Assembly (NCBI GenBank): GCA_963706795.1
Contig: OY970170.1
Location: 1,230,001 to 1,262,000 of the forward strand
Length of the DNA stretch: 32,000 nucleotides
DNA from: Candidatus Saccharimonadota bacterium
GTDB taxonomy: Bacteria > Patescibacteriota > Gracilibacteria > BD1-5 > UBA2023
Reading direction: 5' to 3'
Positions 1,652 through 32,000 of the stretch are shown here, in pieces. The stretch's first letter is position 1. Each line of letters begins with the position of its first letter. The position numbers were made by a program, and so were the translations under genes. Under the pieces are notes generated by a model. That model saw only the letters and a program-made list of their open reading frames with translations, was not told the origin of the DNA and did no database searches.

Positions 1652-1833
1652 ATGCGACTAGTTAAATATATAACTTTGATTATCCACAAAAGTCTCAAAA
1701 AGTAAACTGACATATATTTTTCGTGAGATGCAAATCAAAATTTACGTTTTGGAATTTTGAAAATGATCAAAAAACAATAGGATGCACATATCTCTATCCG
1801 ATGCTTTTTCCCACAAAAAGTCACCTCCTTCAC

Positions 1834-3228
1834 ATGAATAAAACAAACGATCCAAAAAACGACCATCCTACCAATCTCAACTTTGAAGAAGTTGAGAAAT
1901 TTATTGAATGAGCAGAGCAAGCACTTCTTTCTAAAAGGAAATACAAGATTAATTCGATCTTTAAGGAACTGATCGGCACAACCAAGTCTCTTGTCAATAA
2001 TGTTTTGCAACTCAAGCATACAGTCAAATTGATACTGCAAACCGTTGACGAACACACTCAGAAGCTCCAAAAATTACATGCCATGAATCGTGAGCTCACA
2101 GGCTTTAAAACGATTATCGAAGCAGCTCTCTTTTTAGAGGAAGCCTTTGCGCGTGACTGTAACGAAATGCGTATTCGCATCATCCTTGCTCCGAATATGA
2201 GCGCAGATGATAAAAAGATGGCGAATCCTATAGCGCAGATGTTTGCTGATGCGATAGAACTTATCGAAAATAATCCAAATCCTACATCAGAAGAAACAGC
2301 AAAACTTAAACGCCTGACAGAACTCATTCCTGTTGTACCCGAAACCCTTGGGATCTCGACAACTTCTCAAAATATCAAGCTCGTTACTCAAGAAAGCTAC
2401 GACAGTATCACTTCTCAAAAAATCGTCGAGGACGTGAGCAGATTAAAAGCTCCAATTTTTTGACGAGATATACACTCAGCATTGATCCATAAACTCGAGA
2501 ATATCGGAGCCATTGCATTTTTGTCACCGTACGAAGGCTATTTTACAGATGCAGATACGACCATTCTCACGATGCATCTTGAGAATATCAGCGACAAGCT
2601 TATGGTTATTAGCGAACTCGAAGAAAACACACTCGATCCCCTTACAAAACTCCCAAACAGACGTCGCATGAGTCAGGAGGCAAACAAGGCATTTGAGGAG
2701 ATCTTGCAGAAACAAACAACTGCGAGCTTTGTGCTCGTCGATCTTGATAAATTCAAGCATGTTAACGATACGTACTGACACGACGCAGGTGACGTGGTAC
2801 TCAAAAAATTTGCAAGCGTTCTCTCAGGCAATCTCAAGGATGCTAAAGATATCAAGGTACGCTGGGGTGGAGAAGAATTTGCTGTCCTTATGAAGGATAC
2901 GACGCCTGAAGAAGCAAACAAAGCTATGCTGCGAGTTTCAAAGGCTTTTTTCGATCTAACGTTTGCGATAGACATCAACGGTAATACGATTGTTGTACAT
3001 CCAAAAACAGACCCTGAAATGATCGCACAAACATTTCGTGTAAGTATGAGTGCAGGTGTGGCAGGTATTACATTAGATTCGATCGAAAATAAGGACTCAG
3101 AAGATACTCTCAAAGAGATAGCAAAAAAAGCGGATTCACGACTTTATGCTGCAAAGGAAGCTTGAAGAAATAGGATAGTTTGGTATGATGCAAGCCAAGA
3201 AGATTCGGCCATTCCAGAAGTTATTTAA
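1834..3228 (+). CDS. Diguanylate cyclase (GGDEF domain) with an uncharacterised N-terminal region
   Basis: Track fragments 1723-1911, 2005-2463, 2482-2778 and 2794-3165 are all in frame 1 and are separated only by TGA (1909, 2461, 2776, 3163). The joined product reads ...LVDLDKFKHVNDTY-[TGA]-HDAGDVVLKKF...RWGGEEFAVL...ADSRLYAAKEA-[TGA]-RNRIVWY. These are canonical GGDEF motifs with an intact GGEEF site. The true stop is TAA 3226-3228. The start is uncertain (ATG 1834, ATG 1801 or GTG 1723). Confidence 0.85.
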
Positions 3229-3715: not shown

Positions 3716-5515
3716 TTAGCTTCCTCGCTTTCCGTGGAGGAGCATTTCGAGAGCATCTTCCATGGAATCCGTTCAGATGAGATCGCCTGCATTTACAAAA
3801 AATATTCGATCGGCATTTTTGATCGTATTAAGACGGTGCGCGATAATCACCTTGGTCGTAGTAGACGGAAGGGTTTCGAGTACTTTTTCGAGGAGTTCTT
3901 CTGTGACGGTGTCGATATTAGCCGTTGCCTCATCGAGGATCAAAAGCTCAGGCTTACGAAGCACGGCGCGCATAAATGCGATAAGCTGTTTTTGACCGAG
4001 ACTGATGGATTCGCCACCGTTGGTTACAGGAGTATCTGGTCCTCATTCAAATCGCTTTAAGAGGTCTGCAAAGCCTGAATTTGCGAGAGCAGTATCGAGC
4101 TCTTCGTGTGACTTTTTAGCGTATTCTTCATTTCCATAAAAAATATTGTCGCGGACAGTTCCTGAGAAAAGAAAAGGTTCTTGGAGAATGAAGCCAATTT
4201 TTTTAGTACGCTCTTCAGTCGAATAGGTGCGAATATCGCGCCCTGAGAGACGAATCTCACCAGACGAAGCATCGTAGAGACGAGCCATAATAGAGGCGGT
4301 TGTAGTCTTCCCTCCTCCGGTTGGTCCAACGAGGGCGTAGGTTTTGCCCTTCTCAAGCACTAAGTCGATCTCATGGAGAATCGTTTTACCATTTGGGTAA
4401 TGAAATGAGACCTTCGAAAACTCAAGTAGATGATCATCATGAATCACCTTTGGCGAAGGCAATTGCGGAAGATCTGACTCCATGGAGAGTACTTCTGAAA
4501 TACGATCGAGTGATGCAAGCGAAAGCTGAAAAGACGACCAAAGTGCGGCAAGCTGCCGCAGTGGACTATAAAAATTCGTCACATAGAGCTGGAATCCGAT
4601 GAGGAGACCGACTGTGAGGTGTCCAGTTGTGATGAGATATATACCAAATGCGAGTGCAACGAGCTGCGCTAGATTGGCGGCGAGTCCATAAATCGGCAAA
4701 AAGACATTGCTCGCATTACCTGAGGCAATGGACGCTTTGTAATTACGTTCACTTGCTTCTTCAAATTTTTGCTTGAAGTAATCAAGACGATTAAATACAA
4801 CGATGACTTTAAAATTTGCGAGACTCTCTTGTATCTCGGAGCTAAGTCATCCAAGTGATCGTAGACTCTCAAGATTTTTTCGCTTCACAAATGGTGAAAT
4901 GAATTGCGTGATTATAAAGACCGCCAGTGCTGGAAGTAGCGTTACAAATCCTAGTCTCAGACTTAAAAAGAGCATAAATATACCCGTTCCAGCCATCAGA
5001 AAGACATTCCCCACAAACTGAATCAGACCCTGTGAAATAAATTGATTGAGCTTATCTGTATCATTATTAATACGCGAGATCAGATCACCCGCCTTATTTT
5101 GATGAAAGAACGAAACCGGAAGCGCTTGAAGCTTGGTAAATATCGCATTACGGAGACCAAATAGCACACGTCGCCCAACGCCACCCATGGACTTTGTCTG
5201 GAGATAACTCGCAAGACTTCCTATTACAAAGATCACAAATAGCAGCGCCGAATACAGCAGAATTCCTTGATAATCCTTGGACGATATCGCTGTATCGATA
5301 GTATGACTGATAATGATCGGTGCAACAAGGGTCGCGAGCGAACTTGTAATAACAGCAACCGTTGTAAATGCGATTACCTTACCTTCTCCAGCCAAAAACG
5401 GAGTAAATCGCTTGAGGGATTGGAGGATTGATTCTTTGGGTTTTTGGGTATCAGGACCACTAAGCTGGTAATTCGTAGGCATGGGTGCTCTGTTGTGAAT
5501 TAAAAATCTGGACAT
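3716..5515 (-). CDS. ABC exporter, fused permease + ATPase (MsbA/ABCB-like half transporter), downstream member of a pair
   Basis: Fragments 4847-5515, 4043-4699 and 3773-3973 share one frame and are joined by TGA. There is a six-helix-type TMD. Walker A is LVGPTGGGKTT. It then reads ...LKRFE-[TGA 4043-4045]-GPDTPVTNGGESISLGQKQLIAFMRAVL..LLILDEATANID..IIAHRL. The true stop is TAA 3716-3718. The alternative start ATG 5482 would shorten the overlap with the upstream gene. Confidence 0.9.
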
Positions 5516-7986: not shown

Positions 7987-8024
7987 AATCTCTAGCACAT
8001 TCCCGTGCTAGAGATTTTATTTTA
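7985..8024. terminator. Bidirectional terminator hairpin shared by convergent genes
   Basis: A perfect 14-bp stem, AAAATCTCTAGCAC (7985-7998) / GTGCTAGAGATTTT (8005-8018), with a 6-nt loop and T-rich flanks. It overlaps both stop codons (TAA 7984-7986 and TAA 8022-8024). Confidence 0.75.
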
Positions 8025-11000
8025 CTTCTGTATATCTTTCCCTTCCTTGATCTTGTCTACTGCAGTTTTGGATGCATCTCAGACAATTGGGGTTCGAGTT
8101 CTGGCTGAGTCTACAAGTTTTTGGTGTGCCTCGAGTTCTTTTGCAGTATTTGCTGCTGCCTTTTCTGAAGCTTTCTGCGCGATTTGCGCTTCGGCTTCTG
8201 CGGCAGTTAAGAGTTGAACTGGATGAAGCTCAGATGGAGCAGCATCAATCACTTGTACTCCATTTCGTACTTCAACGGTACGTTTTACTTTACCATTTCA
8301 ACGTATTTCATCAAATAGGTAGCTTCTGCGACCATTTATAAGTTTACCAGAAGCATCGAATGTTCCGGATTCGACCACCATTCCTGTACCAGTATCATCA
8401 CGTCGTCTTCGGATTCCATCGGTGAGATTGCCATTTACATCAAAATTTCAACGCTCTTGGAGATTGTGATTTACAGTACCGTCGTTATTTTTAGCATACC
8501 GAGTTCCAGCTTTGCCTGTGAGTCCATTTGGATGAAGCTCACCAATAAAGAGCGTGTGATTATTTTCGTAGCGCTGACTCGTTGTTGCCTCATGTGGCGA
8601 GACATTTGTTGGGGCTGGTGGCACAAAAGGGACTCCGAGGAATTCAGCATGATTCTCGGGAGGACGCGGAGAATTTTCTGGCTCGTATCTCACAAATTTT
8701 CCGTCCTTTATTGCATAGTGGGCATGTGTTCAGTTTGCATTTCGCATACTCACAAGACCATCCCAGAGGATCCCATAGTTATAATTTCCAGTTTCAAATC
8801 GTTCAAAGGTGGCGGTTCCTGATCTCGATTCACCTTCTAGGAGATTTCCTTCCTTATCAAAACGCCCCTTCTTGTAGCTCTGAGGGTTGACCGTGCCATC
8901 AGCATGTTTGTCATAGAGCGTTCATTCTTTTGGCATTCCATTTTCGTATGTTTTGCCCTCAAAATGAAATCGATCACCGATTTTTGGCTTAGAAGAAAGT
9001 CCTTCGGATTGACGTGCATATGCGTATGGTTCTGGGCCAGTACGTGCGTTTTCTGGAGTAGTATTTCGAGGTTCAGGACGACTCGCACTTGGTGCTGGTT
9101 CAGAATTTGGACGCATTTCTACAACTGCGATTCCTCCGTCAGGAGTGCGCTTTACGCCCATCATTTTATTAACACCACCGGTCGCTGTACGGAAAGCCGC
9201 CGCCATGATGAATGCTTGGGCGATTTGTTCTGGCGAATATGAGAACTTGTCATCAAAGGCAAGTTTAAACGCAAGTTGACTTCCGATGCCGGCAATATTG
9301 AGCGCGGCTCCGTCGATAATAGCTCACGTACCAAATCGTACGAGTCCATTGCCCATACGACTCACCCGCCCAAGCATGTTATTTCCAGCAAGCACTTTAG
9401 TTACACCACCCAACACTCAAGCAAAGAGGATCGAATCCCCAAGTCCACGCCATGAGTACATATTTGTATCTTCTTGTGCAGATCTTGCAGCACCGTGTCC
9501 AAGCTCAAAAGCAGCTCATTTTCCGATGAATGTATTGCCTGCTTTCATTCCGTAATTTGCGAGCTTTGCAAAACGCGTAGCCTGAAGACCAGTGGAAGCG
9601 ACATTTACAATTGCCGTACCTAGGCCGAGGGTCATCATTCCTGCAGCGAGAGCAACTGATTCAATCCCAGCCATATGCAAGAACTCTCTAAATGAGCGCG
9701 AAGAAGCATTAAATGTACCCGTTCCGAGAATCGAGGACGCCATATCGAGCTCAGAATCTTTTTCGTAGTCTCAATTCCAGTCGACATTTTGATTCAAAAA
9801 GGCTCTCAGATATGCAATGCGGAATGCCTCATCGAGACCCCGCTGCATATGGACTGATTCTGCTTTGTTTAGAAGCTCGCTTTCGGGTTTTGGATCATTT
9901 GTCTGCGCCTTGTATGCACGAACATATGATGCGCCATTCGCCACCCAATCTTGTTGGAGCGCCTTTTTGACGGACTCCATCTCTTGGCGGATTTCTTTTG
10001 AAGCCTTTGCCTGATCTGCGACATTGAGAGGCTTCGCAAAAGGAATCGTCTCGCCGAGTTCGATCTTGGAGATGAGCGACTCTGCATTGGTGATATTCTT
10101 TGTATGACTTCGTGCGATCTGTGAAACTACGAGATCATATTGCCCGATACTGTCTTTGATGAGTTTATAGAGTGTAGCGCGTCGCTGTACGGGATTTTTG
10201 TCATTAGAAAATGCTGACATCCAGTGCCAAACAACTCATTTGTCTGGCTCAAGAATATATGTAATTTTCTTGGCAAATTCGTTGATATCACCTCATTTTA
10301 TAACGTATTCGTCCACGAGTTTCCAGGCCTTAAGCGCTTGGGATTGCTTATTTTGGTACTGTGCGCTGTATGCCTCAAGAAAAATCGCCATATCATCAGC
10401 CCAGCCAATTCGACTTTTTTGCTCTGGAGAAATCTGAGCTTCGGCTCACTGTTTTGCAGCATCTACATAATTTGCATGCCAGATAACTTTTTCGGTACCA
10501 TTCTCACCAATGAGATAATATGCACCATCTCGCACAACCATACCGATTGCAGGAGCACCGAGAACTTTGAGTGCCTCAGACTGTGTAGCTGGCGCGCTCT
10601 TAAGTGGAGCAGCAGGAGCCTTTTTTGGTACTGAAGCCTGAGGTACAGATGGAGTAGCATCTACCTTTGGTGCAGGCTTTGCAAGAACAGCAGGAATAGA
10701 AACAGGTTTTTGCTCAATTTTTTGAGCATCCTGCGAAGCAGGCTTTGCAACCGAAGTTGGTGTAGGAGCAGGAGTTGGAGCTTTAGGAGTAGCAACTACA
10801 TGGGGAGGAACAGAGGCAACTGGCGCACTCTTTTGCGCTTTTGTTTGATCAACATTAGAAGTCTTAGGTTTTTCTCCGGCCTGCTTTTTGAGGACTTCAA
10901 CGAGGCTCCCAAAAGTTTCGGGTCCAGGAATGCCATCTACTCGGATTTCTTCTGCAATCTGAAATTCTTTAATCGCGTGCGTGGTTTCAGTTCCCATCAT

Positions 11001-11252
11001 CCCATCAATTCCATGCTCAGGGAGTTTGTAACCAAGAGTCACCAGCGTCTTTTGGATAATAAGGACCACTGCAGCGCTATCTTTAGGAGAATCTGGACGA
11101 TGAAAAGGCTGATTTTTATACTCAGCGAGCTTTGTAAGCAAAAACTCATTGGTGAAGCCTTGGATAGCTTCTTTTACGTCCTGATCTTTTTCGAGATTGA
11201 GACCGGTTTTTACCTGCTCTTTGACCCAGTTTGGGCTGTGCTCAATAGACAT
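8022..11252 (-). CDS. Large (1076 aa) multidomain envelope protein: N-terminal peptidoglycan-binding domain, Pro/Ala/Lys-rich linker, Gly-rich hydrophobic central region, C-terminal MORN/YwqK-like repeats
   Basis: Track fragments ending at 11252, 10220, 9743, 9206 and 8693 are all in the same frame. They are linked by 12 in-frame TGAs (10446, 10293, 10236, 9771, 9516, 9417, 9324, 8922, 8730, 8448, 8298, 8079), and the stop is TAA 8022-8024. A PG_binding_1-like stretch reads AVVLIIQKTLVTLGYKLPEHGIDGMMGTETTHAIKEFQ..RVDGIPGPETF. The linker reads KPKTSNVDQTKAQKSAPVASVPP...PKKAPAAP. The central segment is GIESVALAAGMMTLGLGTAIVNVASTG...GVLGGVTKVLAG...GAIIDGAALNIAGIGS. The C-terminus has repeated G-x-x-x-x-x-[YF]-x-x-x-G-x-[LV] units, for example GKTYENGMPKEGTLYDKHADGTV and GRFDKEGNLLEG. 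Confidence 0.75.
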
Positions 11253-16883: not shown

Positions 16884-18404
16884 CTACGCGAGATAGTTCT
16901 CCCACTTCGCAATTCGGCCATCAGTTTCAAAATATTCAAATTCTGCCCATTTGGACATTACTTCCTTATCCATGGAGAGTTTTACAATGGCTCCGTCAGA
17001 CTGGAGTAATTCATCGATAGTTTTTGTGGCACATGAAGGATCGAAGAGATCAATCCCATGTTTCTCCAAAAGAATTTTTACAAGGAAATCGAGCCGCTTA
17101 TGACAGATATATGTTGGGCTTTTTGAATGCTCTCTGAGCTCGGCTACGGTCTCAACTTTTTTTGGAGTTCTCGCATATGCACGACGCTTGTATTCGAGCC
17201 AGCTGTAGGGATCTGGATATTTCATGGATTCACCGAGCGCTTTTTGTTCCGCCTGGATACGAGCAATTTCGAGCCAAGAAGCATCAGAAGCCCCATCCTG
17301 AAAGCGTGATTGAATCATTGATATTTTTGCGTCCATAGCCATATACGCGTGATACTGACTCACAAGCTTATCTACGCGCTCCTCGGATAATGCCACAAAT
17401 GCCTCAATAGTATCTGGAATCATAGGAGAAGAAATTGATTGGATTGTGTGTGTAATTGAATGGTCACTCACTTGCTCAAAAATGAGTATTTGCGAAGGCG
17501 TCATGGGGCTCACAGTTATAATATTGAGATATGGAGCCACGCTTGTGTGCTTGGAATAGACGAAACTTCCGTGAACAAAATCAAATTCGGTTTGCCCGAT
17601 TACACCTTTTGCACGCATGACATTTGTTCCAAGAGACGCGATGGCCAGATCAAGATCCTGCCGAGAAAAATTCGCATGCAACTCAAAGCTTCTCGTGAAT
17701 ACTGGCGCCTTTTTTGTAGCTGATCTGGTATTCATATGTGAGGTCGGAGCAGATGCACTTCTCAAAAAACTCGGCTTTGATTCGGGCTTTTTAGGGAGAT
17801 GATCGAGTAGTCACAAAAGGGATTCGTAATCCTGCTCATGTGGATGTGATTCGAAGGATTCTTGACTCGATCAATCGATCTTTCTGAGTTGTACGATCGG
17901 AGCAGATGGAGCGAGTCGACCTATCCATTGCAGAACATTGTCCGAATTCCCCTCAGTCCACGTGAGTCCGACGATATCCGCAGTCCTCATCTGAGTATCC
18001 ATCACCACTCTCTCCGCCTCAGAACGAAGTGGAAAATGCTCGACATCCGAGAGCACAATCGTCGTCACACGAAACCCAGTTCGCTTCATAAGAGCAAGAA
18101 TGGCAGGTCATTCGGCAATTCCACTCGGCTCAACAATCAGGAGTTCTGAGGAACCCTTCGCTTGATGCAGGGCATTGGAGAGAGATTCCATGTCTTCGCA
18201 GCAGATACACCCCTCGGTGAGCGCGGTCACGTCAGCATCACTCAAACGAGCCGCATCGATATTAATTGATCCAACGTCATTGACGATAATTTTGGTTTTC
18301 TGCTTAAATCGCGAAAGCATCCATCGGATTAGTGACGTTTTTCATGATCCAAGTGGCCCAAGGACCAATAGGGCTCGCGAAGTATCGGGACTGTGCATTG
18401 TCAT
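16884..18404 (-). CDS. COG0523-family (CobW/ZigA/YeiR-like) G3E GTPase metallochaperone with an approx. 190-aa C-terminal extension
   Basis: Fragments 18108-18320, 17871-18089 and 16884-17765 share one frame. ATG 18404 gives MTMHSPDTSRALLVLGPLGS-[TGA 18342-18344]-KTSLI (Walker A). It continues IIVNDVGSINID, the GCICCE (CxCC) metal motif, LLIVEPSGIAE (Walker B-like), and a CobW_C-like NVMRAKGVIGQTEFDFVHGSF. Stop is TAG 16884-16886. Confidence 0.85.
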
Positions 18405-18409
18405 ATCCA

Positions 18410-19228
18410 CTACAGTGATCAAAGAATACAAGAATTCACAACACCAGACGGTGGATTACAATACATCACTTCTGCGTATCCATCCGGAAGCCACGAAGTT
18501 TGCATCTCCGGATAGAGAAATGTTCTGTAACCGAATGCTGTACGAAACAATACGGTCTGTCCTGACCTACTCGAATCCAAGATAGATTGAGCAATTATTC
18601 GTTTTGTCACTGCATCACATCCCGCAAGTGCAGCAACAAAAATACAGTCGTACTCTCCATAGCCAGAGAATTTTTCGGCTGACCCATGGAGAATTCCAAC
18701 ATTCTCTGCGAGCCCTATTCGGCTGATGAGCAGACGAGAGAGCTCACAGGCATTTTCATTGCTATCAAGACAATCAACCCCTTCTATAAATGCATCCTGC
18801 ATTAATATTGGAGAGAGTGGCAGTGGTCCTGATCCCACAAAAAGCGCCCTACGTGCAGAACCGAGCCCACGTTCTTTTCGGTACTGATGGATCAATGATA
18901 TTTCCCATGTACTGAGCAACCGATAATTTTGCATATACGGAAATATCTCAAGATCTTTGAGACTCAAAGGGTCTTTATTTTTAAGAAGCAAATTTGCCCA
19001 ATGATGCTCGAGAAGGGATTCTCACTCTGAGCACAGAGACTGCATTTTGGAGCGCAATGAGCGAGTCGGGATATCCCAAAAAAGCTCAGAAATATCCCCG
19101 TCATGCCCCATAACCGTCTCTACCAAACGCGAGAATTCACCATTTACCGTCGGCGAAGGATGAAGCGAATCCTCCCGTGAAAGCCGATCATATATCGTCT
19201 GAATTACTTCAATACTACTATGCGTCAT
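18410..19228 (-). CDS. Nicotianamine synthase-like (NAS/CntL family) SAM-dependent aminobutyryl transferase
   Basis: Fragments 19022-19228 and 18419-18991 share one frame. The joined sequence aligns block by block with the NAS family: LCSE-[TGA 19022-19024]-ESLLEHHW, EIFPYMQNYRLL, ALFVGSGPLPLS, YDCIFVAALAG, LFRTAFGYRTFLYPE, GVVNSCIL. After TGA 18419 come two codons, then TAG 18410-18412. Confidence 0.9.
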
Positions 19229-19631
19229 GCCCCGCTTTTGTTACACAAGAAGGACAATTTCCCACATGCGTCTCACGATGGGATTCTAGGATATTTCCTG
19301 CACTATTTTTGAAGTGCTCATCACTAATACTCCCACATCCATGACAGTGAGTGAGTTCAAAATGCCTCGATGGTTCTCGACCATTTCGGATCTCTGCACA
19401 GAGTACAAATGACTCCACGCCATGCTCATAGAGAGCATGGATAAGTCCCGCATCCCGAAAATCAGAAATACCTCGATAGAGCGTCGCAAGATTTGCACCT
19501 GTACGAGATATGTAAGCTTCTTTGAGCGAATCAAAGTCGCACGCATTCTGCTCAGATAAAATCTCAAGCAACGCCACTCGCGACTTCGTTGCACGACATC
19601 AGACAGAATGAATAATTGAGGAATGGTCCAT
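19218..19631 (-). CDS. Fur-family metalloregulator, probably Zur
   Basis: ATG 19631 gives MDHSSIIHSV-[TGA 19599-19601]-CRATKSRVALLEILSEQ...ATLYRGISDFRDAGLI (winged helix). The C-terminus has two CxxC pairs (HCHGCG ... NCPSC) typical of the structural Zn site. Stop is TAG 19218-19220, overlapping the NAS start by 11 nt. The Zur assignment rests on gene context. Confidence 0.75.
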
Positions 19632-23526: not shown

Positions 23527-26500
23527 CTATTTTGAAAGCTCTTGAGCTAATAATTCGCTCTGTTCAATCACACGATCAGCCTCAATCTTTGCGAGGTCTG
23601 GTGGATACCCATAGCGCATGAGCACTTTTTTTACCGTGAGACGAAGTTGAGCGCGAACATCATCACGTTTGTTCCAGTCGACTGTAGCATTCTTTCGAAT
23701 GATATCTACGATCATATGGATCAATTCCTTCATCTTATGATCCTCCAGAAATTCTGTCGATGTGTTCTGCGAAAGTATAGAATAAAATGCATATTCTTCG
23801 GGGGTGAGACCAATCTCCTTTGCTCGCATATCCTCAATCCTCATATCGCGTGCAATCTGTGAAAGTTCCTCGATAATCTGTGCTGTATCGAGTTGATTGT
23901 TATGGTAACGCTTAATCACATTTCCAAGCATTTCAGAGAACTTTTTCCCTTGAGCAACATTCTTTTGTTTGCGAACCTTCACCTCCTCAGTGAGAAGTTT
24001 TTTAAGGAGTTCAAAAGCAAGATTTTTGTGCTCCATGTTTTTCACTTCTAATAGAAATTCCTCTGACAGAATCTCAAGTGAAGGAGCTTTGATTCCTGCT
24101 GCTTCAAAAATATCTACCACTCAATCCGAAGACAAAGCTTCTTCGACAATCTGTCGGATCGCCGTATTTACCTCTGCATCACTTTTTCAACCAGTAGGTG
24201 AGAATTTATTGATTCGTGATTTAATAGCCTGAAAGAAGGCAATATGATCCTTGATTTGTTCCGCCGCAACACTCGGTACAGCCATTACAAAGAGTTTTGA
24301 AAGCGCAGACACTTCAGCGAGGAATCGATTCTGTGTATCTTCACTTCGAAGGATGAAGTTTTGTGCAGCGAGCAACACATGAAGCTTCTTTCAGGTTTCA
24401 GCAGTGAAATACGACTGATAATCGAATCCGTGAAACATCTGAGAAACAATCTCGAATTTTGTTCGCATCCCAGCTATTACCTCCGCAATATCCAATACTG
24501 CTTGCCCCTGTCACCCATTGTCCGTATACGTCGACATCGCATTTCGCAGATCTTGTCCGATACCGATATAATCAACAATCAATCATCCTGGCTTATCTTT
24601 GTAAACGCGGTTCACACGTGCAATTGCCTGCATAAGGTTTGCACCTTCCATTTTCTTGTCGATGTACATCGTATGGAGCGACGGTGCGTCAAATCCTGTC
24701 AGCCACATGGACTGTACGATCACGAGTTGCAGGGAATCATTCGGATCTTTGAGCCTAAGGGCTAATGCCTTGCGCTCATCCTTGGTAGTGTGATGTGGCT
24801 GGAAATCTTCAGGATCATCTGTTGAGCTCGTCATCACGATCTTCAAGAAACCCTTCGTAAGATCCTGATCATGCCATTCAGGTCTGAGTTTCACAATCTC
24901 AGTATATAGGTTCACTGCGATCTGTCGTGTCATACACACGATCATCCCCTTTCCTTCGAAGATAGCCTGACGCGCTTCAAAGTGATCAACGATATCCTTC
25001 GCAATATCCCTCAATCTATCTGGATGCCCCACGATACTATCGATCTGTGCATTGCGTTTTTTTGCTTTCTCTTTCTGCTCAGGTGTTGCATCTTCGATCT
25101 CATCGATCGCTATATCGATCTGAGCAACAGCCGCATCGTTCATCTTGATCTTCACAAGTCGACTCTCATAACTAATCGGCACAGTTGCGCCATCTTGAAC
25201 CGCCTGTGCGATATCGTAGATATCCACATATCCACCAAATACTGCAGGTGTAGACTTATCTTCCTTCTCGATCGGAGTACCCGTGAATCCTATGAAAGAA
25301 GCCTGAGGAAGCGCATCTCTCATATACTTTGCATTCCCGTACTTGATCTCGCCATCAAGATCAACCTTTCCCGTGAAACCATACTGACTTCGATGCGCCT
25401 CATCTGCAACCACTACAACGTTTGAACGATCCGTAAGAACCTCGAAAGAATTCTGCCCATCTTCAGGATAGAATTTCTGAATTGTCGTGAAAATAATCCC
25501 ACCACCTGATACTTTGAGAAGCTCCTTCAAATGCGCACGATTATTCGCCTGGACTGGTTTTTGTCGCAGGAGGGAGACACAGTTCCCAAATGTTTGAAAT
25601 AGCTGTTCATCGAGATCATTACGATCCGTGAGTATCACGATCGTAGGATTCTTCATCGCAGGTTCTACAACGAGTCTTCCAGCATAGAAGACCATGGAGA
25701 GTGACTTCCCAGATCATTGAGTATGCCACACAACCCCAATCTTCTTGTCACCATCTTCTGCAGTGGCACGCAAGGTTTCCTTCACTGCCTTCTCCATCGC
25801 GTAATACTGATGATACGCAGCAACTTTTTTGATCTTGATTACAGAGAGCACTCCCGTTTCTTTATTCTTTACTTCTTCAGCTTCAAATACTGTATTGTAT
25901 CTGATCAATTCGAGCAGAGTTTTCTTCTCGAACATTCGCTCCGCCAAGATCTGAAGCTCAGGCAATACCCCATTTTCCTTCTTCTCAGGTGATTTCCACA
26001 CGAGATAACGTGAGAACGGTGCAGAGACACTCGACACTCGTGCATCGAGCCCGTCAGAGATCACGCAAAGTGCATTGTAATAGAACACAGAAGGAACCGC
26101 CTTCTTGTAGTTCTGAATCTGTGTGAAAGCTCGCTCCAATGTAGCATCCTCATCCATTGTATTCTTGAGCTCAACCACGACAAGTGGGAGTCAATTCACA
26201 AACAACACAACATCCAGTCGCTTTTCATTGTTATTTTCCTTTACTACGAACTGATTCACCACACAGAAGTGGTTATTCTCTGGATTCACAAAATCCACCA
26301 AGTTCACACTCACCCCCTTCGACTGCCCATCCGTGAAATACTCCACCACTACCCCATCCGTTAACATCTGATGAAATACCTCGTTGTTCATCATTAGATC
26401 ATCCGAATCAAAGCGACGAATCTTTGAAAGTGCTTCGATTCGAGCAGATTCTGGGATGTGAGGATTGAGACGGTCGATAGATGTAGTTAGTACCGTATCT

Positions 26501-26640
26501 AAAATAACGCCGTCAAAACTCGAACGCATAGGGGTTGAGCTGTATGGAGAGATATCTGGACCATAGAAATACTCGTAGCCCTGAGATTTGAGGAGATCTA
26601 CGAGGTTTTGTTCGATGGAAGATTCGGTAAGGTGGGGCAT
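23527..26640 (-). CDS. hsdR: Type I restriction enzyme R subunit (1037 aa)
   Basis: Five track fragments (ends 26640, 26178, 25695, 24378, 24120) lie in one frame, joined by seven TGAs (26191, 25714, 24583, 24511, 24391, 24187, 24121). Motifs are VLFVN-[TGA]-LPLVVVELK, VVWHTQ-[TGA][12 protein letters not shown] (helicase motif I), [13 protein letters not shown] (DEAH), [18 protein letters not shown], and KPG-[TGA]-LIVDYIGI. The helical C-terminal region is typical of HsdR. Stop is TAG 23527-23529. Confidence 0.95.
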
Positions 26641-26644
26641 AGAC

Positions 26645-27196
26645 TTATATATGAAGTTCTTGAGGTAAGAATCTATTTATTTCATTATCTGACCAAGTAA
26701 ATTCTTCATCTCTATTCTGTTTTCATAACAAAGATAACTGAGCCTCAGTGTAATCAGTATATGTTGTTTGTGAGGATAGTCAGACAATAATTTGATACTG
26801 TTCCTGATATAAATCTCTTCTTCAAATCGTTTCATCTTCGCTCAAACCACCTATAATATCAACTATAAAGTTTTTATATTTATCTCTCAAGTTTAGAAAT
26901 TGCAGTGCAATTTTTTTAAACTCCTGTGCTCTTTGTTCTATAGAAAATTCTTTCTGGAGGAATAAGAAAATTATCTCAGAAACCGTTAATGCAACAGATA
27001 CACCTCCAAAAATATTACTGTCTGGAAATTTAATCTGTAAAATAAGGAATACTAGAATCAAGAAAACATCAATGATGTTTACCCACTTAATCAATCATTG
27101 AACTTTTTCTAGTCTATCACACGCTTTTTCATAAACCTTGTGATTAAAGACGCATTGAGCAAATTGCTGTCTTACCACTGAAAGATTTCTATTCAT
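26645..27196 (-). CDS. SLATT-like two-transmembrane effector protein (183 aa)
   Basis: ATG 27196 lies 11 nt after the nucleotidyltransferase stop. The N-terminal helix is MNRNLSVVRQQFAQCVFNHKVYEKACDRLEKVQ. Two hydrophobic helices follow (WVNIIDVFLILVFLILQI and IFGGVSVALTVSEIIFLFL), then a helical tail EQRAQEFKKIALQFLNLRDKYKNFIVDI. There are four in-frame TGAs (27095, 26822, 26780, 26723). Stop is TAA 26645-26647, 4 nt before the hsdR ATG. The architecture and the neighbouring gene fit the SLATT family. The family call is an inference. Confidence 0.55.
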
Positions 27197-27207
27197 ATTT
27201 TAGAAGA

Positions 27208-28086
27208 TTATCATGTAAATTTTGATCAAAATATTTCCCTCCATTTTTGATTAGCAGAATATTCCTTTGCCTCCGATTCATACTGCATAGCCTCTATCGC
27301 TAAGTTATATGCCAATTTTGCCTTGTACTCAAACTTTCATCCCCTCCATACGTACTGACCACTTCAAGGTGCAAGCCAGTAAGATTTATCCTCATCCTGT
27401 TCTTTAAGGAATTTAAAGAAATCCCTTACCATCCAATCATAATACAAATAAGATTTATCCTTTTGCGCCCAATTCTTCATAAAATGATAGCATAATGTAT
27501 CAATCAAAAGCCCTCACATTGGTACATTCCAATAATCTTTCCATACCCTAGTAATTCTGCATAGTCTTTTTAAATTAAAATTCCAGTCTTCATTCTTCTC
27601 CCTAATTTCCTTAATCTCAGGTTTTGGATTTGTCTTCTTCCAAGAACCTCAATCGTTTGAATCAGGAAAAGTATAACTATCGTCAGTTTTAATAAAGGCA
27701 GGTACTATTTCAAAACAGATTCAATCATTCCAGTTGATTCAAATAACTTGTCCATCCCCTTTTATATGTGTTGTAGGATATGTTTTCTGTAATGATGATC
27801 TAATTGCTTGCAACAATGCAGACTGTCAGTTTCCAGTATAATTGTTATACGTTTCATACAGTGAATCTGGAAGTTGAAAAATTACATCAATGTCACTTAC
27901 ATGTATGTCTGTATCTCTACCATAAGATCATACGTATAGACTATGGCTATATTCTGATTCTGTGGACCAAAAATCTTTATTTAATCTCTTTGTGATAGAT
28001 CTATAGCGTACTGAAATCGTATCTATATTATCAATATCGATACGAATATTATCGCAGAAATTTTCAAATTTAGTTGTAATAGACAT
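27208..28086 (-). CDS. SMODS / CD-NTase-like nucleotidyltransferase (292 aa), candidate second-messenger synthase
   Basis: There is no ORF in the track. The minus frame from ATG 28086 to TAA 27208-27210 has ten in-frame TGAs and no TAA or TAG. The translation contains HSLYV-[TGA 27928-27930]-SYGRDTDIHVSDIDVIFQLP, the pol-beta-fold G-S ... D-x-D motif. It continues GDGQVIGINWNDGICFEIVPAFIKTDDSYTFPDSNDGGSWKKTNPKPE, which supplies the third acidic residue on the strand ending in VP and the W-x-x-TNP block. This is the pattern of SMODS/CBASS cyclases. Confidence 0.75.
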
Positions 28087-28099
28087 AGATTAACAAGAA

Positions 28100-29332
28100 C
28101 TAAATTAAAGATGGTAAAATTTCTCCGCTCATCAACCTTGGCAATAGCTCATCGCGAGTTCTCGAGAGCAATGCTACTTGAGCTAAGTTATTATAGATTT
28201 TTCGAAAAATTGGCTTAACTTTCTCATCAAATCCCCTTACTCTCTCAATATTTGGAACAAGCACCTCAAGTTCTTTTATCATGGTCGAATTAATCGCTGT
28301 GACTATCGATGAAGTACTTCATAGTGAGTTGAAATCCAGTTTCTGAAGATAGCAATATATAAATTCGGTACTCAATGCAGAGTTGCCCTTGATTTTCAGG
28401 TGAGCAATTGCTTCATTTGAGAGCATCTCTTCGGTGGTAATCGTTAGTTTACCGACAGTCATTTTGAAACTCAATATCGTTGTATTGATAGGAATTACTG
28501 AGATATTGAATTTCTTAATTGCCTCATCTATCAGATATTCTGAAGTTTCAAAAATATATGTTTTACTATTTCCGATATCCTTTATAGAAATCCACTTTTT
28601 CCCTGTTGGAGATTTTGAAAACCACTCCGGTTGAATACGAGGAGGAGTTCTTCAGATTGTAATATCAAACTCCGTCCCTAATTTTCCTACTCTCCAACCC
28701 TCCGGCAACTCATCATCTACGCCATACTTCCCAAATAACTCCTGAAAAATTGTCTGCGCAGTTTTCTCAAGTGTCTCATTTTGCTCTCGAAGAAGTTCGA
28801 TCTTATCATCGAAACTTGAAAGTATTTGAGCGATTGCTTGTTGTTCAGGGAGAGAAGGAAGAAGAATAGGATATTCAGTAATTTGTCTCTGGCTTATATG
28901 CGGGATAGATGTTCCAGTATGAACCTTTGCTACATAGGATTCAAAATTCTTATTTAGAATGAGATGTGCTATGAAATGCTGATCTGAGATTCATGGTTTC
29001 CTTCTTAAACATGCTACTCGCTGAGCCAATATTAGTGGCAGTTCTTTTTCTTGAACCATAGACCTATTTTTTCCAACCTTTGATCCATCCATTCAAATTA
29101 CTATGTCATCTTTTTGTAAGAAACACTTTTCCAATCCATCCGTAGAATGATTCCAATACTTCACAATATCCCATCTAAGAAATCATTCCGAGACATTTTC
29201 TCATCTTACGACTCTCAAATTTCAATTCGAATCATATAAATTTCACTTGAATGATTCTCACGTAAAAATATCCACAACCTTCCCCAAAGTCGTCTCCATC
29301 CACCCTTCAGGAATCATTTTTTCATTTCTCAT
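28100..29332 (-). CDS. hsdS: Type I restriction-modification specificity subunit (410 aa)
   Basis: ATG 29332. There are nine in-frame TGAs. Two target-recognition halves are each introduced by P-E-G-W (MIPEGWMETTLGKVVDIFTG and ELPEGWRVGKLGTEFDITIG). The conserved central helix is LPSLPEQQAIAQILSSFDDKIELLREQNETLEKTAQTIF, and the C-terminal one is LLSRTRDELLPRLMSGEI. Stop is TAG 28100-28102. Confidence 0.9.
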
Positions 29333-29333
29333 A

Positions 29334-29804
29334 CTACTTTTGAGGATTACTCATTTGATTAAGTACGCTATCCACCGCCTTTCATGGTAAGTTTATATCT
29401 CCTGTGTTAGTTCATGGAGTGTTTACTTTCTCAGCAATGTTCTCATAATCTGGCGTAACTTTATAATTTCCTCGATTACTCCTATAAAGCTTCCAATTCT
29501 GTGCCCATTCAATCGCAGTATCTCGGAAACTTTTGTCTATCTTACCGTAATTTACAAGTGTCTCTGAGCCTCAAAATCAGATAGTCATAAATGTTACGAG
29601 ATAGGCCACAGTAATCACCCCGACTTTGTTCTTAAACCATTCAACTTTTGTAGTCAGAAGATATGTCAGAAAAACGAGCAAACAAGCGATTCCGATTGCT
29701 ATAAGCCAGAAGATGATCGTGAATACCGCATAAATAATCACCGCGAGGATTACAATTCCTATCACTCATTGTTCTACGAATCTTTCTTTTCATTTTCGAC
29801 CCAT
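29334..29804 (-). CDS. Small membrane protein (156 aa) with 2-3 TM helices and a soluble C-terminal tail, unknown function
   Basis: The frame of track ORF 29577-29765 extends to ATG 29804 and through TGAs to TAG 29334-29336, which is 1 nt before the hsdS ATG. The hydrophobic core is VIGIVILAVIIYAVFTIIFWLIAIGIACLLVFLTYLL ... VGVITVAYLVTFMTI. Confidence 0.6.
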
Positions 29805-29848
29805 ACTACTTTTGGTTATCAGACAAAGGTTTATGCACTTCAAATAAT

Positions 29849-30985
29849 TTATTTCTCCAGGATATCAAAATAAGACCTAAATACGAAGAGTCGATTTCTT
29901 TTGTTGCCAGTGATTTCCACAAGTATGCCAAGCTTCACAAAATCTTGTATGAGATCGTTTGTCGCTTTTGGGGAGAGATCTGTAATCAATTGCACGTTTC
30001 GCGAAGATACGATGGGCTTCTCGAAAAGTTTCTCAAGCAAGGTATGTGCGCTTTGCATCTTCCTTCCAAGAGTGGGAAGTGAATTTTTGGTATGATAGTC
30101 TTTCAGATCTAGGACTGCCTTGAGCGAAAGCGTTGCTTCATTTGCAGTTTGTTCCACTCACTCAAGGAAGAAAAGCACCCAAGAGAGAAGATCGTTTTTC
30201 TCTCTAACCCAGGTGAGCTTGTCGTAGTAGAGGGATTTGTTCTTTTCGAAGAAATCAGATACATACAAGAGTGGTCTATGGAGTATACCGTTACTTACTA
30301 GATAGAGCGGTATCATGAGTCTCCCAGTTCTGCCGTTCCCATCGAGAAATGGGTGTATAGTCTCGAACTGATAGTGAGCTATGGCAATCTTTATGAGATG
30401 AGGAAGTCACACGGCGTCATTATGGAGGAATTTCTCTAGATCAGACATGAGATCACTTACGTGTTCTTGACTCGGGGGTATAAATTTTGCATCAGACAGA
30501 CCCGCACCGCCAATCCAATTTTGACTCGTTCTGAATTCTCAGGGACTCTTATCCCTTCCTCGCACATGAGAGAGAAGGATCTTGTGGATTGATTTAATCA
30601 AGCGGTTTGAGAGTGGGATATTCTCAAGTTCTTCGATAGCAAAATTGAGAGATTCACGATATTGAATAGTTTCCCTCCAGTCATCCCGTTTTTCTGGTTG
30701 GATATCTCATTCATCAGAAAAAGCCTCTTCAATATTGGTTTTTGTTCCCTCTATTCGGCTTGATGTGACCGCTTCCTTCATGACATATGATTGAAGGAAA
30801 AGTTCGATATTTGGGACAAATTTTGAAAAGGAATTGAGCTCACCAAGCTTAAATGATGCGGATTCAAGTTTCTTCTGAAGAAGAGGATGTGAAAAAGTCC
30901 ATTCATGATTTATGGTTTCAGGAAGGAAGTACTTATACTGATAAGCATTTCTCCAAACTCCAGATGTAAAGGTCTCGATCTGCAT
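29849..30985 (-). CDS. Fic-family protein (AMPylase-type; 378 aa)
   Basis: Fragments 30707-30985 and 29849-30157 are in one frame, with four in-frame TGAs. The N-terminal block is [15 protein letters not shown]. The Fic motif [12 protein letters not shown] lies at 30355-30320. The C-terminal wHTH-like region is [25 protein letters not shown]. Stop is TAA 29849-29851. Confidence 0.9.
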
Positions 30986-31025
30986 AGAAGTAAATTATAT
31001 ATTTCTATAATTTAGTTTATCAGTT

Positions 31026-31059
31026 AAAAGTAAAATTACAATATCCATATTTTACTTTT
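31026..31059. other. AT-rich perfect hairpin in the hsdM-fic spacer
   Basis: AAAAGTAAAAT (31026-31036) pairs with ATTTTACTTTT (31049-31059) across a 12-nt loop. The stem is entirely A/T apart from one G:C pair. Its role is unknown; it could be an attenuator, a processing site or a binding site. Confidence 0.3.
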
Positions 31060-31071
31060 GAACGTTATCCA

Positions 31072-32000
31072 CTAAAGCTCAAATCCTATCTTCGCAAGCT
31101 GTCTTTTGATCTCTTCATCGAGTTCTTTCTCTCGTGCCATCTGCTCACCGAGCTTAGTGGTGAGTTCTTTCATCTTTACTTCAAATGGAATCCCATCGTC
31201 AACTGCGTCTACAATCCCAACATATCGACCTGGAGTAAGTACAAATCCATGTTTCTCGATGTCAGCGAGGCTTGCAGACTTACAATATCCTTTCTGATCT
31301 TCGTAGGTATTCCCTTTTCTCCAGTTGTGATACGTTTCAGCGATCTTATTCATATGATCTTCGGAGAGATCTCTATGAACACGATCCTTCATATATCCCA
31401 TCTCAGAAGCATCGATGAAAAGCGTTTCACCTTTGCGCTCTGTTCTCTCACGTCGGAGAAACCAGATACAGGCTGGGATACCAGTATTGTAGAAAAGTTG
31501 TTTTGGAAGCGCGACGATACAGTCTACGAGGTCTGCAAGGACGAGCTTTTTGCGGATTTCTCCTTCTCCACTTGTATTAGATGAGAGTGAACCGTTAGCA
31601 AGAACGGTCGCCATGACTCCATGAGGCGCAAGGTGGTAAAGCATATGTTGAATCCATCCGAAATTCGCATTCCCTGAGGGTGGAACTCCGTATTTCCAGC
31701 GCGCATCGTCTTGGAGGATATCGACTCCCCACTCTGATTGATTGAAGGGCGGATTTGCGATGATAAAGTCAGCCTTGAGATCAGGATGCTCATCACGAAG
31801 AAAAGAGCCCTCTGTATTCCAACGCACAAACTGCGAGTTGATATTACGGATTGCTAGATTCATCTTTGAGAGTTTCCAGGTTGTTTGGTTACTCTCTTGG
31901 CCGTAGATAGTGATATCTTTGATATTTCCCTGGTGTTCTTTGATGAATTTCTCACTCATTATGAACATACCACCGGAACCACAGGCTGGGTCGTAAACAC
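31072..32000 (-). CDS. hsdM: Type I restriction-modification methyltransferase subunit, partial (N-terminus beyond window end)
   Basis: The track ORF 31072-31968 frame continues to the window edge (..[15 protein letters not shown] = SAM-binding motif I). The catalytic motif is [14 protein letters not shown]. It continues [29 protein letters not shown]. Stop is TAG 31072-31074. Confidence 0.95.

What the first reader, a model, noticed from the sequence alone, without database searches (positions are those of the whole stretch)
26645..28086. Hidden two-gene CBASS-like module (SMODS/CD-NTase-like nucleotidyltransferase + SLATT-like 2-TM effector) wedged between hsdS and hsdR
The 879-nt minus-strand frame 28086-27208 has ten TGAs and no TAA or TAG, so no standard-code ORF is reported there. 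Its translation carries the GS...DxD pol-beta nucleotidyltransferase core and the FEIVPAF / SWKKTNP blocks characteristic of SMODS/CBASS cyclases. Eleven nucleotides later a 183-aa protein begins. It has an N-terminal helix, two TM helices and a helical tail, which is the SLATT effector layout. A cyclase plus a membrane effector is the minimal type I CBASS architecture. Here the pair lies inside a type I R-M operon, 13 nt after the hsdS stop and 4 nt before the hsdR start, in a recoded, presumably small-genome episymbiont lineage. I cannot tell whether this exact arrangement has been described.
Basis: partly seen in the sequence, partly recalled or inferred. Interest (0 to 1): 0.85.

Follow-up and report, generated by a model that had tools for sequence, protein, structure and literature searches.

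The report
CBASS pair inside restriction-modification operon
A bacterium that reads TGA as glycine carries an ordinary two-gene CBASS anti-phage module (a signal-making enzyme plus a membrane-killing protein) inside a type I restriction-modification operon, and public sequence data hold many copies of this layout.

Summary
The minus-strand frame 28086-27208 has 10 in-frame TGA and no TAA or TAG (chance about 4e-9). Nine of the ten TGAs fall on columns where 103 or more of 120 homologues have Gly, so TGA codes for Gly (table 25). The 292-aa product matches Pfam SMODS (4e-51) and a PADLOC CBASS cyclase model over its full length (7e-139). It keeps the GS, DxD and third acidic residues. The 183-aa neighbour matches SLATT_4 (2e-24) and has two hydrophobic helices. 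No Cap2/3 or HORMA/TRIP13 genes are present, so this is a type I CBASS. It lies 13 nt after hsdS and 4 nt before hsdR, in an operon that also carries a SoFic-type Fic gene.

It is not unusual. The family has more than 6,600 database relatives. The same proteins are already in a public collection, read with W at the TGA codons and tagged SMODS and SLATT_4. A Patescibacteria MAG has the same gene order. Of 45 related loci with readable flanks, 16 have hsd genes on both sides of the pair. Two of the further contigs fetched by look-up also have in-frame TGA and the pair inside such an operon. Genes embedded in type I R-M operons are a known theme (PrrC, TgvAB).

Verdict: a new member of a known kind, of modest interest. 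The open question is whether the R-M complex controls this CBASS clade.

The parts
27208..28086 (-). CD-NTase / SMODS cyclase, 292 aa under table 25, with 10 TGA=Gly codons. Predicted catalytic residues are G53 S54, D65, D67 and E126.
   Evidence: Pfam SMODS 4.4e-51. PADLOC Cyclase PDLC00786 7e-139, full length. Best PDB sequence match is Pa CdnD at 3e-8, with the catalytic Asp residues aligned. TGA columns are Gly in the homologues. The invariant residues are kept. The fold of a 74%-identical proxy matches CD-NTases.
26645..27196 (-). SLATT_4 two-transmembrane effector, 183 aa, 4 TGA codons. It has a conserved N-terminal helix, TM1 at about 34-56, TM2 at about 62-80, a helical tail and a conserved EEFTWSDxEINRFLP motif near the C-terminus.
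   Evidence: Pfam SLATT_4 1.6e-24. PADLOC Effector 2TM 1.1e-31. NCBIfam SLATT_4 72.6 bits, above the cut-off of 55. Hydropathy peaks. Family alignment. AF2 model of a 66%-identical proxy is all-helical with pLDDT 90.7.
28100..29332 (-). hsdS, the type I R-M specificity subunit, 410 aa. Its stop lies 13 nt upstream of the cyclase start.
   Evidence: Pfam Methylase_S 3.2e-28, two stretches. Gaps.
23527..26640 (-). hsdR, the type I restriction subunit, 1037 aa. It starts 4 nt after the effector stop.
   Evidence: Pfam HSDR_N, SWI2_SNF2, ResIII, T1R_D3-like and T1RH-like_C. 73% identical to the HsdR of L002.
31072..32000 (-). hsdM, the type I methyltransferase; only the C-terminal part is present because the gene runs off the window end. 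It carries the [11 protein letters not shown]-binding motif.
   Evidence: 75% identical to the HsdM of L002, which has HsdM_N and N6_Mtase domains. Translation.
29849..30985 (-). Fic-domain protein of SoFic type, 378 aa, with an intact [12 protein letters not shown] motif.
   Evidence: Pfam Fic_N 2.5e-22 and Fic 5.4e-20. PADLOC SoFic 3e-118.
29334..29843 (-). Unknown multi-TM ORF of up to 169 aa (first ATG at codon 14), lying between Fic and hsdS.
   Evidence: No family in Pfam or PADLOC. Gaps of 5 and 1 nt to its neighbours.
30994..31023 (-). Best sigma-70-like site of the region. It lies in the only sizeable gap of the gene row (86 nt, hsdM to Fic) and may be the promoter of the Fic-to-hsdR block.
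   Evidence: 10 of 12 matches, but the total number of promoter-like sites is below the shuffle expectation, so this is weak evidence. Gap.

Best explanation
This is a minimal type I CBASS anti-phage module in a Gracilibacteria-type bacterium that reads TGA as glycine. It is carried as cargo inside a type I restriction-modification operon ordered hsdM, Fic (SoFic type), orf169, hsdS, CD-NTase, SLATT_4 and hsdR.

Shown here:
- Both genes are intact, and each belongs to its family by sequence.
- The cyclase keeps the catalytic residues, and the fold of a close proxy is that of a CD-NTase.
- The genes from Fic to hsdR are separated by only 1-13 nt on one strand.
- The pairing of cyclase and SLATT effector is kept in almost all related loci.
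- The clade nearest the window's cyclase lies mostly inside type I R-M operons.

Inferred from what is established for CBASS:
- The six genes from Fic to hsdR are transcribed together.
- Phage infection activates the cyclase, which makes a cyclic di- or tri-nucleotide of unknown identity.
- The cytoplasmic N- and C-terminal helical parts of the SLATT protein bind that signal.
- The two-TM hairpin then oligomerises and makes the inner membrane leaky, which kills or arrests the cell before the phage completes its cycle.
- R-M acts first on unmodified DNA. CBASS, and probably the Fic protein, act as a backup against phages that escape restriction.
For: Family membership.

Catalytic residues aligned to Pa CdnD D62 and D64, with E126 at the third acidic position.

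Fold (proxy).

TM hairpin and helical tail.

No ancillary CBASS genes: the direct neighbours are hsdS and hsdR.

Tight spacing and no terminator-like site between the genes.

A SLATT effector follows the cyclase in 76 ORFs across 87 loci.

Same gene order in the Patescibacteria MAG GCA_021734125.1, with identities of 75% (hsdM), 73% (NT), 66% (effector) and 73% (hsdR).

Embedding statistics: 16 of 45 assessable loci have hsd genes on both sides. Thirteen of the 17 closest relatives have an hsd gene directly next to the pair, against 3 of 25 more distant ones.

Two further TGA-recoded contigs carry the pair inside an R-M operon.

Long residence under code 25: 50-56% of the Gly codons in the two genes are TGA, including conserved Gly positions.

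Literature: a lactococcal type I CBASS with a PF18186 SLATT effector is active against phages (PMC11381338).
Against: No function was measured; product, trigger and membrane action are all inferred.

The NCBIfam equivalog CBASS_cyclase_b scores 106.8 bits, below its cut-off of 200, so the cyclase is not in that curated subgroup. Its CD-NTase clade is unassigned, and the best solved relative, Pa CdnD, is only about 20% identical.

No solved structure resembles the SLATT model, so pore formation has no structural support.

Co-transcription rests on spacing alone. The promoter and terminator scans are no better than chance.
Confidence: 0.88

Rival explanations
1. The CBASS pair is a guard of the R-M system, working as PrrC does. 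The cyclase would be held latent by, or would monitor, the HsdMSR complex. It would fire when a phage anti-restriction protein (Ocr, Stp or ArdA type) disables restriction, so its position inside the operon would be functional and not incidental.
For: The clade closest to the window's cyclase is adjacent to hsd genes in 13 of 17 assessable loci, against 3 of 25 for more distant relatives.

At least four different layouts occur: hsdM|pair|hsdS, hsdS|pair|hsdR, the pair upstream of hsdM, and the pair downstream of hsdR.

In two recoded contigs an AAA_13 ATPase gene follows the pair in the same slot. From my own recollection, not tested here, this is the family type of PrrC and RloC.

PrrC sets the precedent: it is latent with EcoprrI and activated by a T4 inhibitor of EcoprrI (PMC1484252).
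Against: The same cyclase-SLATT family occurs without any hsd neighbour in 22 or more loci, so it can work on its own.

The layouts cluster on the rough tree. A few ancestral insertions that then spread with mobile R-M operons would explain the numbers.

Defence genes cluster in general.

No interaction evidence of any kind exists.
Confidence: 0.08
2. The pair serves mainly as an addiction or stabilising cassette, a toxin-like module that penalises loss or disruption of the operon, and not as phage defence.
For: It encodes a membrane-toxic effector. hsdR lies directly downstream of the pair with a 4-nt gap, so deletions or polar mutations would affect restriction. The whole block is conserved across lineages.
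Against: There is no antitoxin-like partner. The cyclase keeps every catalytic and invariant residue expected of a signal-making enzyme. The family is a CBASS family in PADLOC, and experiments elsewhere show CBASS with SLATT_4 effectors to be anti-phage (PMC11381338).
Confidence: 0.03
3. The frame is a decaying pseudogene or a chance open frame in AT-rich DNA, and its in-frame TGAs are true stops.
For: With table 11 only fragments are found. G+C is low, 0.30-0.33 against 0.42 for the window.
Against: The chance of such an open frame is 4e-9. The TGAs fall on conserved Gly columns. All 58 invariant family columns are kept. Full-length HMM matches. The neighbouring genes of the window use TGA in the same way.
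Confidence: 0.01

Closest known systems
Type I CBASS with a 2TM (SLATT) effector. The SMODS-SLATT pairs were described by Burroughs et al. 2015 and classified by Millman et al. 2020 (both from my own knowledge; neither paper is in the library). PADLOC carries the models as 'Cyclase' and 'Effector 2TM'.
   Same: A two-gene unit with the cyclase first and the SLATT_4 effector immediately after, and no Cap2/Cap3, HORMA/TRIP13 or other ancillary genes. Full-length matches to the PADLOC CBASS models and to Pfam SMODS and SLATT_4.
   Different: The host uses genetic code 25, so 14 Gly codons are TGA. The unit lies inside a type I R-M operon instead of standing alone. The product nucleotide and the CD-NTase clade are unknown.
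Lactococcal plasmid type I CBASS (pUCCL631_167/168), which has experimental anti-phage activity (PMC11381338)
   Same: The effector belongs to the same Pfam family, PF18186 SLATT_4, and is about 190 aa. The system has two genes.
   Different: Its cyclase is a 408-aa NTase with an AGS-C domain (PF18134) and is closest to B. fragilis CdnB (7LJO). It is not a 292-aa SMODS-only enzyme closest to Pa CdnD. It was not reported inside an R-M operon.
P. aeruginosa CdnD (PDB 6p82, 6p8j, 6p8u), a type III CBASS cyclase
   Same: It is the closest solved structure, by sequence (3e-8) and by fold (TM 0.78-0.79). The catalytic Asp residues align.
   Different: Identity is only about 20%. CdnD works with HORMA and TRIP13 partners, which are absent here.
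PrrC anticodon nuclease within the EcoprrI type Ic R-M locus (PMC1484252); also TgvAB embedded in the V. cholerae VPI-2 type I R-M operon (PMC11411939)
   Same: An unrelated abortive-infection or second-line defence gene lies between hsd genes of a type I R-M operon on the same strand.
   Different: The proteins and chemistry are entirely different: a tRNA nuclease and a GmrSD-like type IV restriction enzyme, against a nucleotide-signal cyclase with a membrane effector. Coupling to the R-M enzyme has been shown for PrrC but is untested here.

Membership tests
CD-NTase / SMODS (CBASS cyclase) | Significant full-length match to the family profile, above the curated threshold | tested here: met
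   Pfam PF18144: 173.8 bits against a cut-off of 26.5, covering profile positions 1-164 of 164. PADLOC PDLC00786: 7e-139, covering 1-291 of 292.
CD-NTase / SMODS (CBASS cyclase) | Pol-beta NTase active site: a GS motif, [DE]x[DE], and a third acidic residue on the next strand | tested here: met
   G53 S54, D65 and D67 align to the DID of Pa CdnD, which is NIN in the D62N/D64N mutant 6p8j. E126 aligns to its third Asp. All are invariant in 41 sequences.
CD-NTase / SMODS (CBASS cyclase) | cGAS/DncV-like fold | tested here: met
   Tested on the 74%-identical proxy P0003, not on the window protein itself. pLDDT is 92.7. The top 50 Foldseek PDB hits are all CD-NTases, with TM 0.78-0.79 to CdnD.
CD-NTase / SMODS (CBASS cyclase) | Synthesis of a cyclic oligonucleotide | not testable with these tools
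   Needs enzyme assays.
NCBIfam NF041117 CBASS_cyclase_b (equivalog) | Score above the curated cut-off of 200 bits | tested here: not met
   106.8 bits. It is related to this curated subgroup but not a member.
SLATT_4 2TM effector | Profile match above the curated threshold | tested here: met
   Pfam PF18186: 86.9 bits against 27. NCBIfam NF033632: 72.6 bits against 55. PADLOC Effector 2TM: 1.1e-31.
SLATT_4 2TM effector | Two transmembrane helices forming a hairpin, flanked by helical cytoplasmic parts | tested here: met
   Kyte-Doolittle 19-residue windows exceed 1.6 at start positions 32-45 and 61-63. The AF2 proxy model has helices 2-57, 62-84, 87-116, 121-141 and 147-158. This is a prediction only.
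SLATT_4 2TM effector | Membrane insertion, and signal-dependent pore formation or cell killing | not testable with these tools
   No solved structure resembles the model. Needs experiments.
Type I CBASS (operon class) | Cyclase and effector only, with no Cap2/Cap3, HORMA/TRIP13 or other signature ancillary genes | tested here: met
   The flanking genes are hsdS and hsdR. The other genes of the row are Fic, an unknown TM ORF and hsdM.
Type I R-M operon | hsdM, hsdS and hsdR present on one strand | tested here: met
   hsdS Methylase_S. hsdR has five Pfam domains. hsdM is 75% identical to a domain-annotated HsdM and has the DPACGSGG motif. hsdM is cut by the window end.
R-M-embedded guard of PrrC type | Physical or functional coupling of the embedded gene product to the R-M enzyme | not testable with these tools
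   Only the position is shared, and that position recurs.

The most novel reading that the evidence does not exclude
The CBASS clade that includes this pair may be specialised cargo of type I R-M operons and functionally wired to them. The cyclase might sense inactivation of the Hsd complex by phage anti-restriction proteins, as PrrC does, or might depend on read-through transcription of the operon. That would make it a nucleotide-signalling guard of restriction. Its persistence in code-25 Gracilibacteria would show that such layered immunity is maintained even in lineages generally described as having small genomes (genome size was not measured here).
Probability: 0.1. Interest if true: 0.7.

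Novelty: new member of a known kind. Interest (0 to 1): 0.3.

Why it matters
The practical lesson is that table-11 gene calling hides defence systems in code-25 lineages, and table-4 calling writes W where G belongs, including in the catalytic GS motif. Defensome surveys of Gracilibacteria and Absconditabacteria need the correct table.

Biologically, the locus adds a three-layer defence operon (type I R-M, SoFic-type Fic and type I CBASS) to a lineage generally described as having a small genome. It also points to a CBASS clade that is found mostly inside type I R-M operons. That recurrence could be tested cheaply for functional coupling. The module itself is a textbook type I CBASS, and specialists would not find it surprising.

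Tried and rejected
I used the homologues P0003 (74% identical) and P0124 (66% identical) instead.
- P0001 and P0121, and their contig L001, looked like an independent second copy. L001 is 100% identical to the window in nucleotides, and the proteins differ only by W for G at the TGA codons. They give no independent support.
- The genome-contig scan with the single protein returned only 3 distant loci. The metagenome scan with an alignment was far more useful.
- I searched for insertion scars (flanking direct or inverted repeats) around 26300-28500 and found only short matches of chance size.
- The promoter and terminator scans found fewer or no more sites than shuffled sequence, so they do not define the transcription units.
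- The Foldseek search with the SLATT model found nothing significant in the PDB.
- The effector's TGA columns are uninformative about the genetic code, except position 158.
- Burroughs 2015, Millman 2020 and Richmond-Buccola 2024 are not in the library. What I say about them comes from memory or from citing papers.
- No paper in the library combines CBASS with Gracilibacteria.
- I did not assign a CD-NTase clade, because no reference set was available.

Full report
OBSERVATION

On the minus strand, an ATG at 28086 opens a frame that ends TGA-TAA at 27208. The frame has ten in-frame TGA codons and no internal TAA or TAG. Eleven nucleotides later a second frame (27196-26645, 183 codons, four TGA) begins. 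The gaps are 13 nt from the hsdS stop to the first gene and 4 nt from the second gene's stop to the hsdR start. With the standard bacterial code the region gives only fragments of 90 aa or less. From the region's own base composition, the chance of 292 codons free of TAA and TAG is 4.4e-9. The two other frames on that strand carry 10 and 22 such stops.

GENETIC CODE

I aligned the translation, with X at each TGA, to its 120 best database relatives. G is the commonest residue in all ten TGA columns, and in nine of them at least 103 of the 120 sequences have G. One of these TGAs supplies the G of the catalytic GS motif. So TGA codes for Gly, which is table 25. Nearly all long genes of the window carry in-frame TGA and end in TAA or TAG. 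Only one of the effector's four TGAs lies in a conserved column, and that column is also Gly. The best named relative of the neighbouring ABC transporter (3716-5515) is from Candidatus Gracilibacteria, at 73% identity. By established knowledge, Gracilibacteria is one of only two lineages known to use table 25.

WHAT THE TWO PROTEINS ARE

Cyclase (292 aa):
- It matches Pfam SMODS over the entire profile (4.4e-51, 173.8 bits against a cut-off of 26.5).
- It matches a PADLOC CBASS cyclase model end to end (7e-139).
- It scores 106.8 bits on the NCBIfam equivalog CBASS_cyclase_b, below that model's cut-off of 200, so it is a relative of that curated subgroup and not a member.
- The best solved relative is P. 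aeruginosa CdnD (3e-8). In that alignment D65 and D67 match the residues mutated in the D62N/D64N entry 6p8j, and E126 matches the third catalytic Asp.
- G53, S54, D65, D67 and E126 are invariant in an alignment of 41 family members, and the window protein keeps all 58 invariant columns.

The model has pLDDT 92.7. Its 50 best PDB fold matches are all CD-NTases (CdnD, CdnC, CdnB, CdnE, DncV and CdnG), with TM up to 0.79.

Effector (183 aa):
- It matches Pfam SLATT_4 (1.6e-24), NCBIfam SLATT_4 (above its cut-off) and the PADLOC '2TM' CBASS effector (1.1e-31).
- Hydropathy shows two hydrophobic stretches, at about 34-56 and 62-80.
- A model of a 66%-identical homologue (pLDDT 90.7) is all-helical. 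One long helix runs from the conserved N-terminus into TM1, followed by TM2 and then three or four helices.
- No solved structure resembles the model.
- The most conserved parts are the N-terminal QQFAQCVFNHK stretch and the C-terminal EEFTWSDxEINRFLP stretch.
- Going by the charge distribution I read from the sequence, both stretches would face the cytoplasm. This is inference.

CONTEXT

All genes lie on the minus strand in this order:
- hsdM, cut by the window end;
- a Fic protein that matches PADLOC SoFic at 3e-118 and has an intact [12 protein letters not shown] motif;
- an unknown multi-TM ORF;
- hsdS;
- the cyclase;
- the SLATT effector;
- hsdR, confirmed by five Pfam domains;
- then an unrelated GNAT gene.

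From Fic to hsdR the gaps are 1-13 nt. The only sizeable gap is 86 nt between hsdM and Fic, and it holds the best promoter-like site of the region. The scans as a whole are no better than shuffled sequence, so co-transcription of Fic through hsdR is inferred from spacing only. No Cap2/Cap3 or HORMA/TRIP13 genes are present, which makes this a type I CBASS by operon class.

HOW COMMON IS IT

The cyclase has 6,637 relatives below E = 0.001, and the best 120 are 62-74% identical and 290-305 aa long. P0001 and P0121 are the window's own proteins in a public assembly (Logan, ERR12037365). They were translated with W at the TGA codons and already carry precomputed SMODS and SLATT_4 Pfam tags. Their contig is 100% identical to the window.

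The MAG GCA_021734125.1 (a Patescibacteria group bacterium with 25% G+C and no in-frame TGA) has the order hsdM, Fic, two unknown ORFs, hsdS, SMODS, SLATT_4, hsdR. Its proteins are 75% (hsdM), 73% (cyclase), 66% (effector) and 73% (hsdR) identical to those of the window, and NCBI names the pair 'nucleotidyltransferase' and 'SLATT domain-containing protein'.

Across 87 fetched loci I searched for hsd genes with iterated profiles. Both neighbours could be assessed in 45 loci. In 19 of them an hsd gene lies directly next to the pair, and in 16 on both sides. Two main layouts occur: hsdM|pair|hsdS (9 loci) and hsdS|pair|hsdR (7, one of them with no effector detected). Rarer layouts have the pair upstream of hsdM or downstream of hsdR. 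Among cyclases at least 62% identical to the window's, 13 of 17 are hsd-adjacent. Among more distant ones, 3 of 25 are. On a rough neighbour-joining tree the layouts form two clades, and the window falls in the hsdS|pair|hsdR clade.

Two further contigs with in-frame TGA also hold the pair inside type I R-M operons. L088 lies next to IF-2, MetK and trigger factor genes. In both L088 and L089 an AAA_13 ATPase gene follows the pair.

COMPOSITION

The cyclase and effector are AT-rich (G+C 0.33 and 0.30, against 0.44 for hsdM and hsdR and 0.42 for the window). They use TGA for 56% and 50% of their Gly codons, against 0-13% in hsdM and hsdR. hsdS and the unknown ORF are intermediate. L089 shows the same mosaic. 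The many TGA codons at conserved Gly positions mean that the module has evolved under code 25 for a long time and is not a recent import from a standard-code donor. I could not resolve whether the central block was exchanged between code-25 genomes.

MECHANISM

The identities, catalytic residues, pairing and context described above are shown by the data. The rest is inferred from established CBASS biology. Infection activates the cyclase. A cyclic oligonucleotide of unknown identity binds the cytoplasmic parts of the SLATT protein. The TM hairpin oligomerises and breaches the membrane, which aborts the infection. R-M is the first line of defence, and CBASS and Fic are backups. A lactococcal type I CBASS with a PF18186 effector has measured anti-phage activity (PMC11381338).

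COMPARISON WITH WHAT IS KNOWN

Defence genes embedded in type I R-M operons are well known. PrrC is held latent by EcoprrI and is activated by a T4 inhibitor of that enzyme (PMC1484252). TgvAB lies inside the V. cholerae VPI-2 type I R-M operon (PMC11411939), and that paper also cites Payne and colleagues on embedded genes. From memory, the abstract of Burroughs et al. 2015 already says that SMODS-type systems are sometimes combined with R-M systems; the paper is not held, so I could not check this. CPR defensomes have been surveyed (PMC12259885). No paper in the library links CBASS with Gracilibacteria.

VERDICT

The thing itself is an ordinary type I CBASS, a new member of a known kind. It looks hidden only under the wrong genetic code, and public databases already tag it correctly. 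The one thread worth following is that this particular CBASS clade is found mostly inside type I R-M operons, in several layouts. That pattern could reflect hitch-hiking on mobile R-M cassettes, which I think most likely. It could instead reflect a PrrC-like functional coupling, to which I give about 10%.

Noticed in passing
window 29849-30985 (-): A Fic-domain gene matches PADLOC SoFic at 3e-118 and has an intact [12 protein letters not shown] motif. It lies between hsdM and hsdS, so the operon holds three defence modules. A Fic gene occupies a comparable place in L002, L022, L035 and L088.
   Followed up: partly
window 29334-29843 (-): An unknown multi-TM ORF of up to 169 aa has no Pfam or PADLOC family and uses TGA for 43% of its Gly codons. 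It is wedged between Fic and hsdS with gaps of 5 and 1 nt. In L002 the same slot holds two different unknown ORFs (150 and 238 aa), so this looks like a variable cargo slot.
   Followed up: partly
window 23527-32000; L089 5296-14828: The R-M operon is a compositional mosaic. hsdM and hsdR have G+C of about 0.44-0.46 and almost no TGA codons. The middle genes (hsdS, cyclase, effector and extra cargo) have G+C of 0.29-0.375 and use TGA for 35-56% of Gly codons. An independent recoded contig shows the same pattern.
   Followed up: partly
L088 10659-11888; L089 9463-11703: In two other TGA-recoded contigs an AAA_13 (PF13166) ATPase gene directly follows the CBASS pair and precedes hsdR. As far as I recall, this is the ATPase family of the PrrC and RloC anticodon nucleases; I did not test that here.
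   Followed up: no
window 16884-19631 (-): A cluster of a CobW-family GTPase (515 aa), a nicotianamine synthase-like protein (Pfam NAS 1.6e-42) and a Fur-family regulator, with overlapping gene ends. It may be a metallophore or zinc-homeostasis unit, which would be unexpected in a lineage generally described as having a reduced genome.
   Followed up: no
window 1723-3228 (+): A GGDEF diguanylate cyclase (1.8e-38) with a long N-terminal region of unknown function. The genome therefore also has c-di-GMP signalling.
   Followed up: no
window 2-1651 (-) and 8022-11252 (-): Two large proteins, probably of the cell surface. The first is repeat-rich and Ser/Thr-rich, has a signal-peptide-like start and runs off the window. 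The second is 1076 aa, with an N-terminal PG_binding_1 domain, a Pro/Ala-rich linker and a long unassigned remainder.
   Followed up: no
L008 8001-10700: In this relative about 1.3 kb lies between the cyclase and the SLATT gene, and tblastn finds a second cyclase-like segment there. This may be a duplication or an inserted gene.
   Followed up: no
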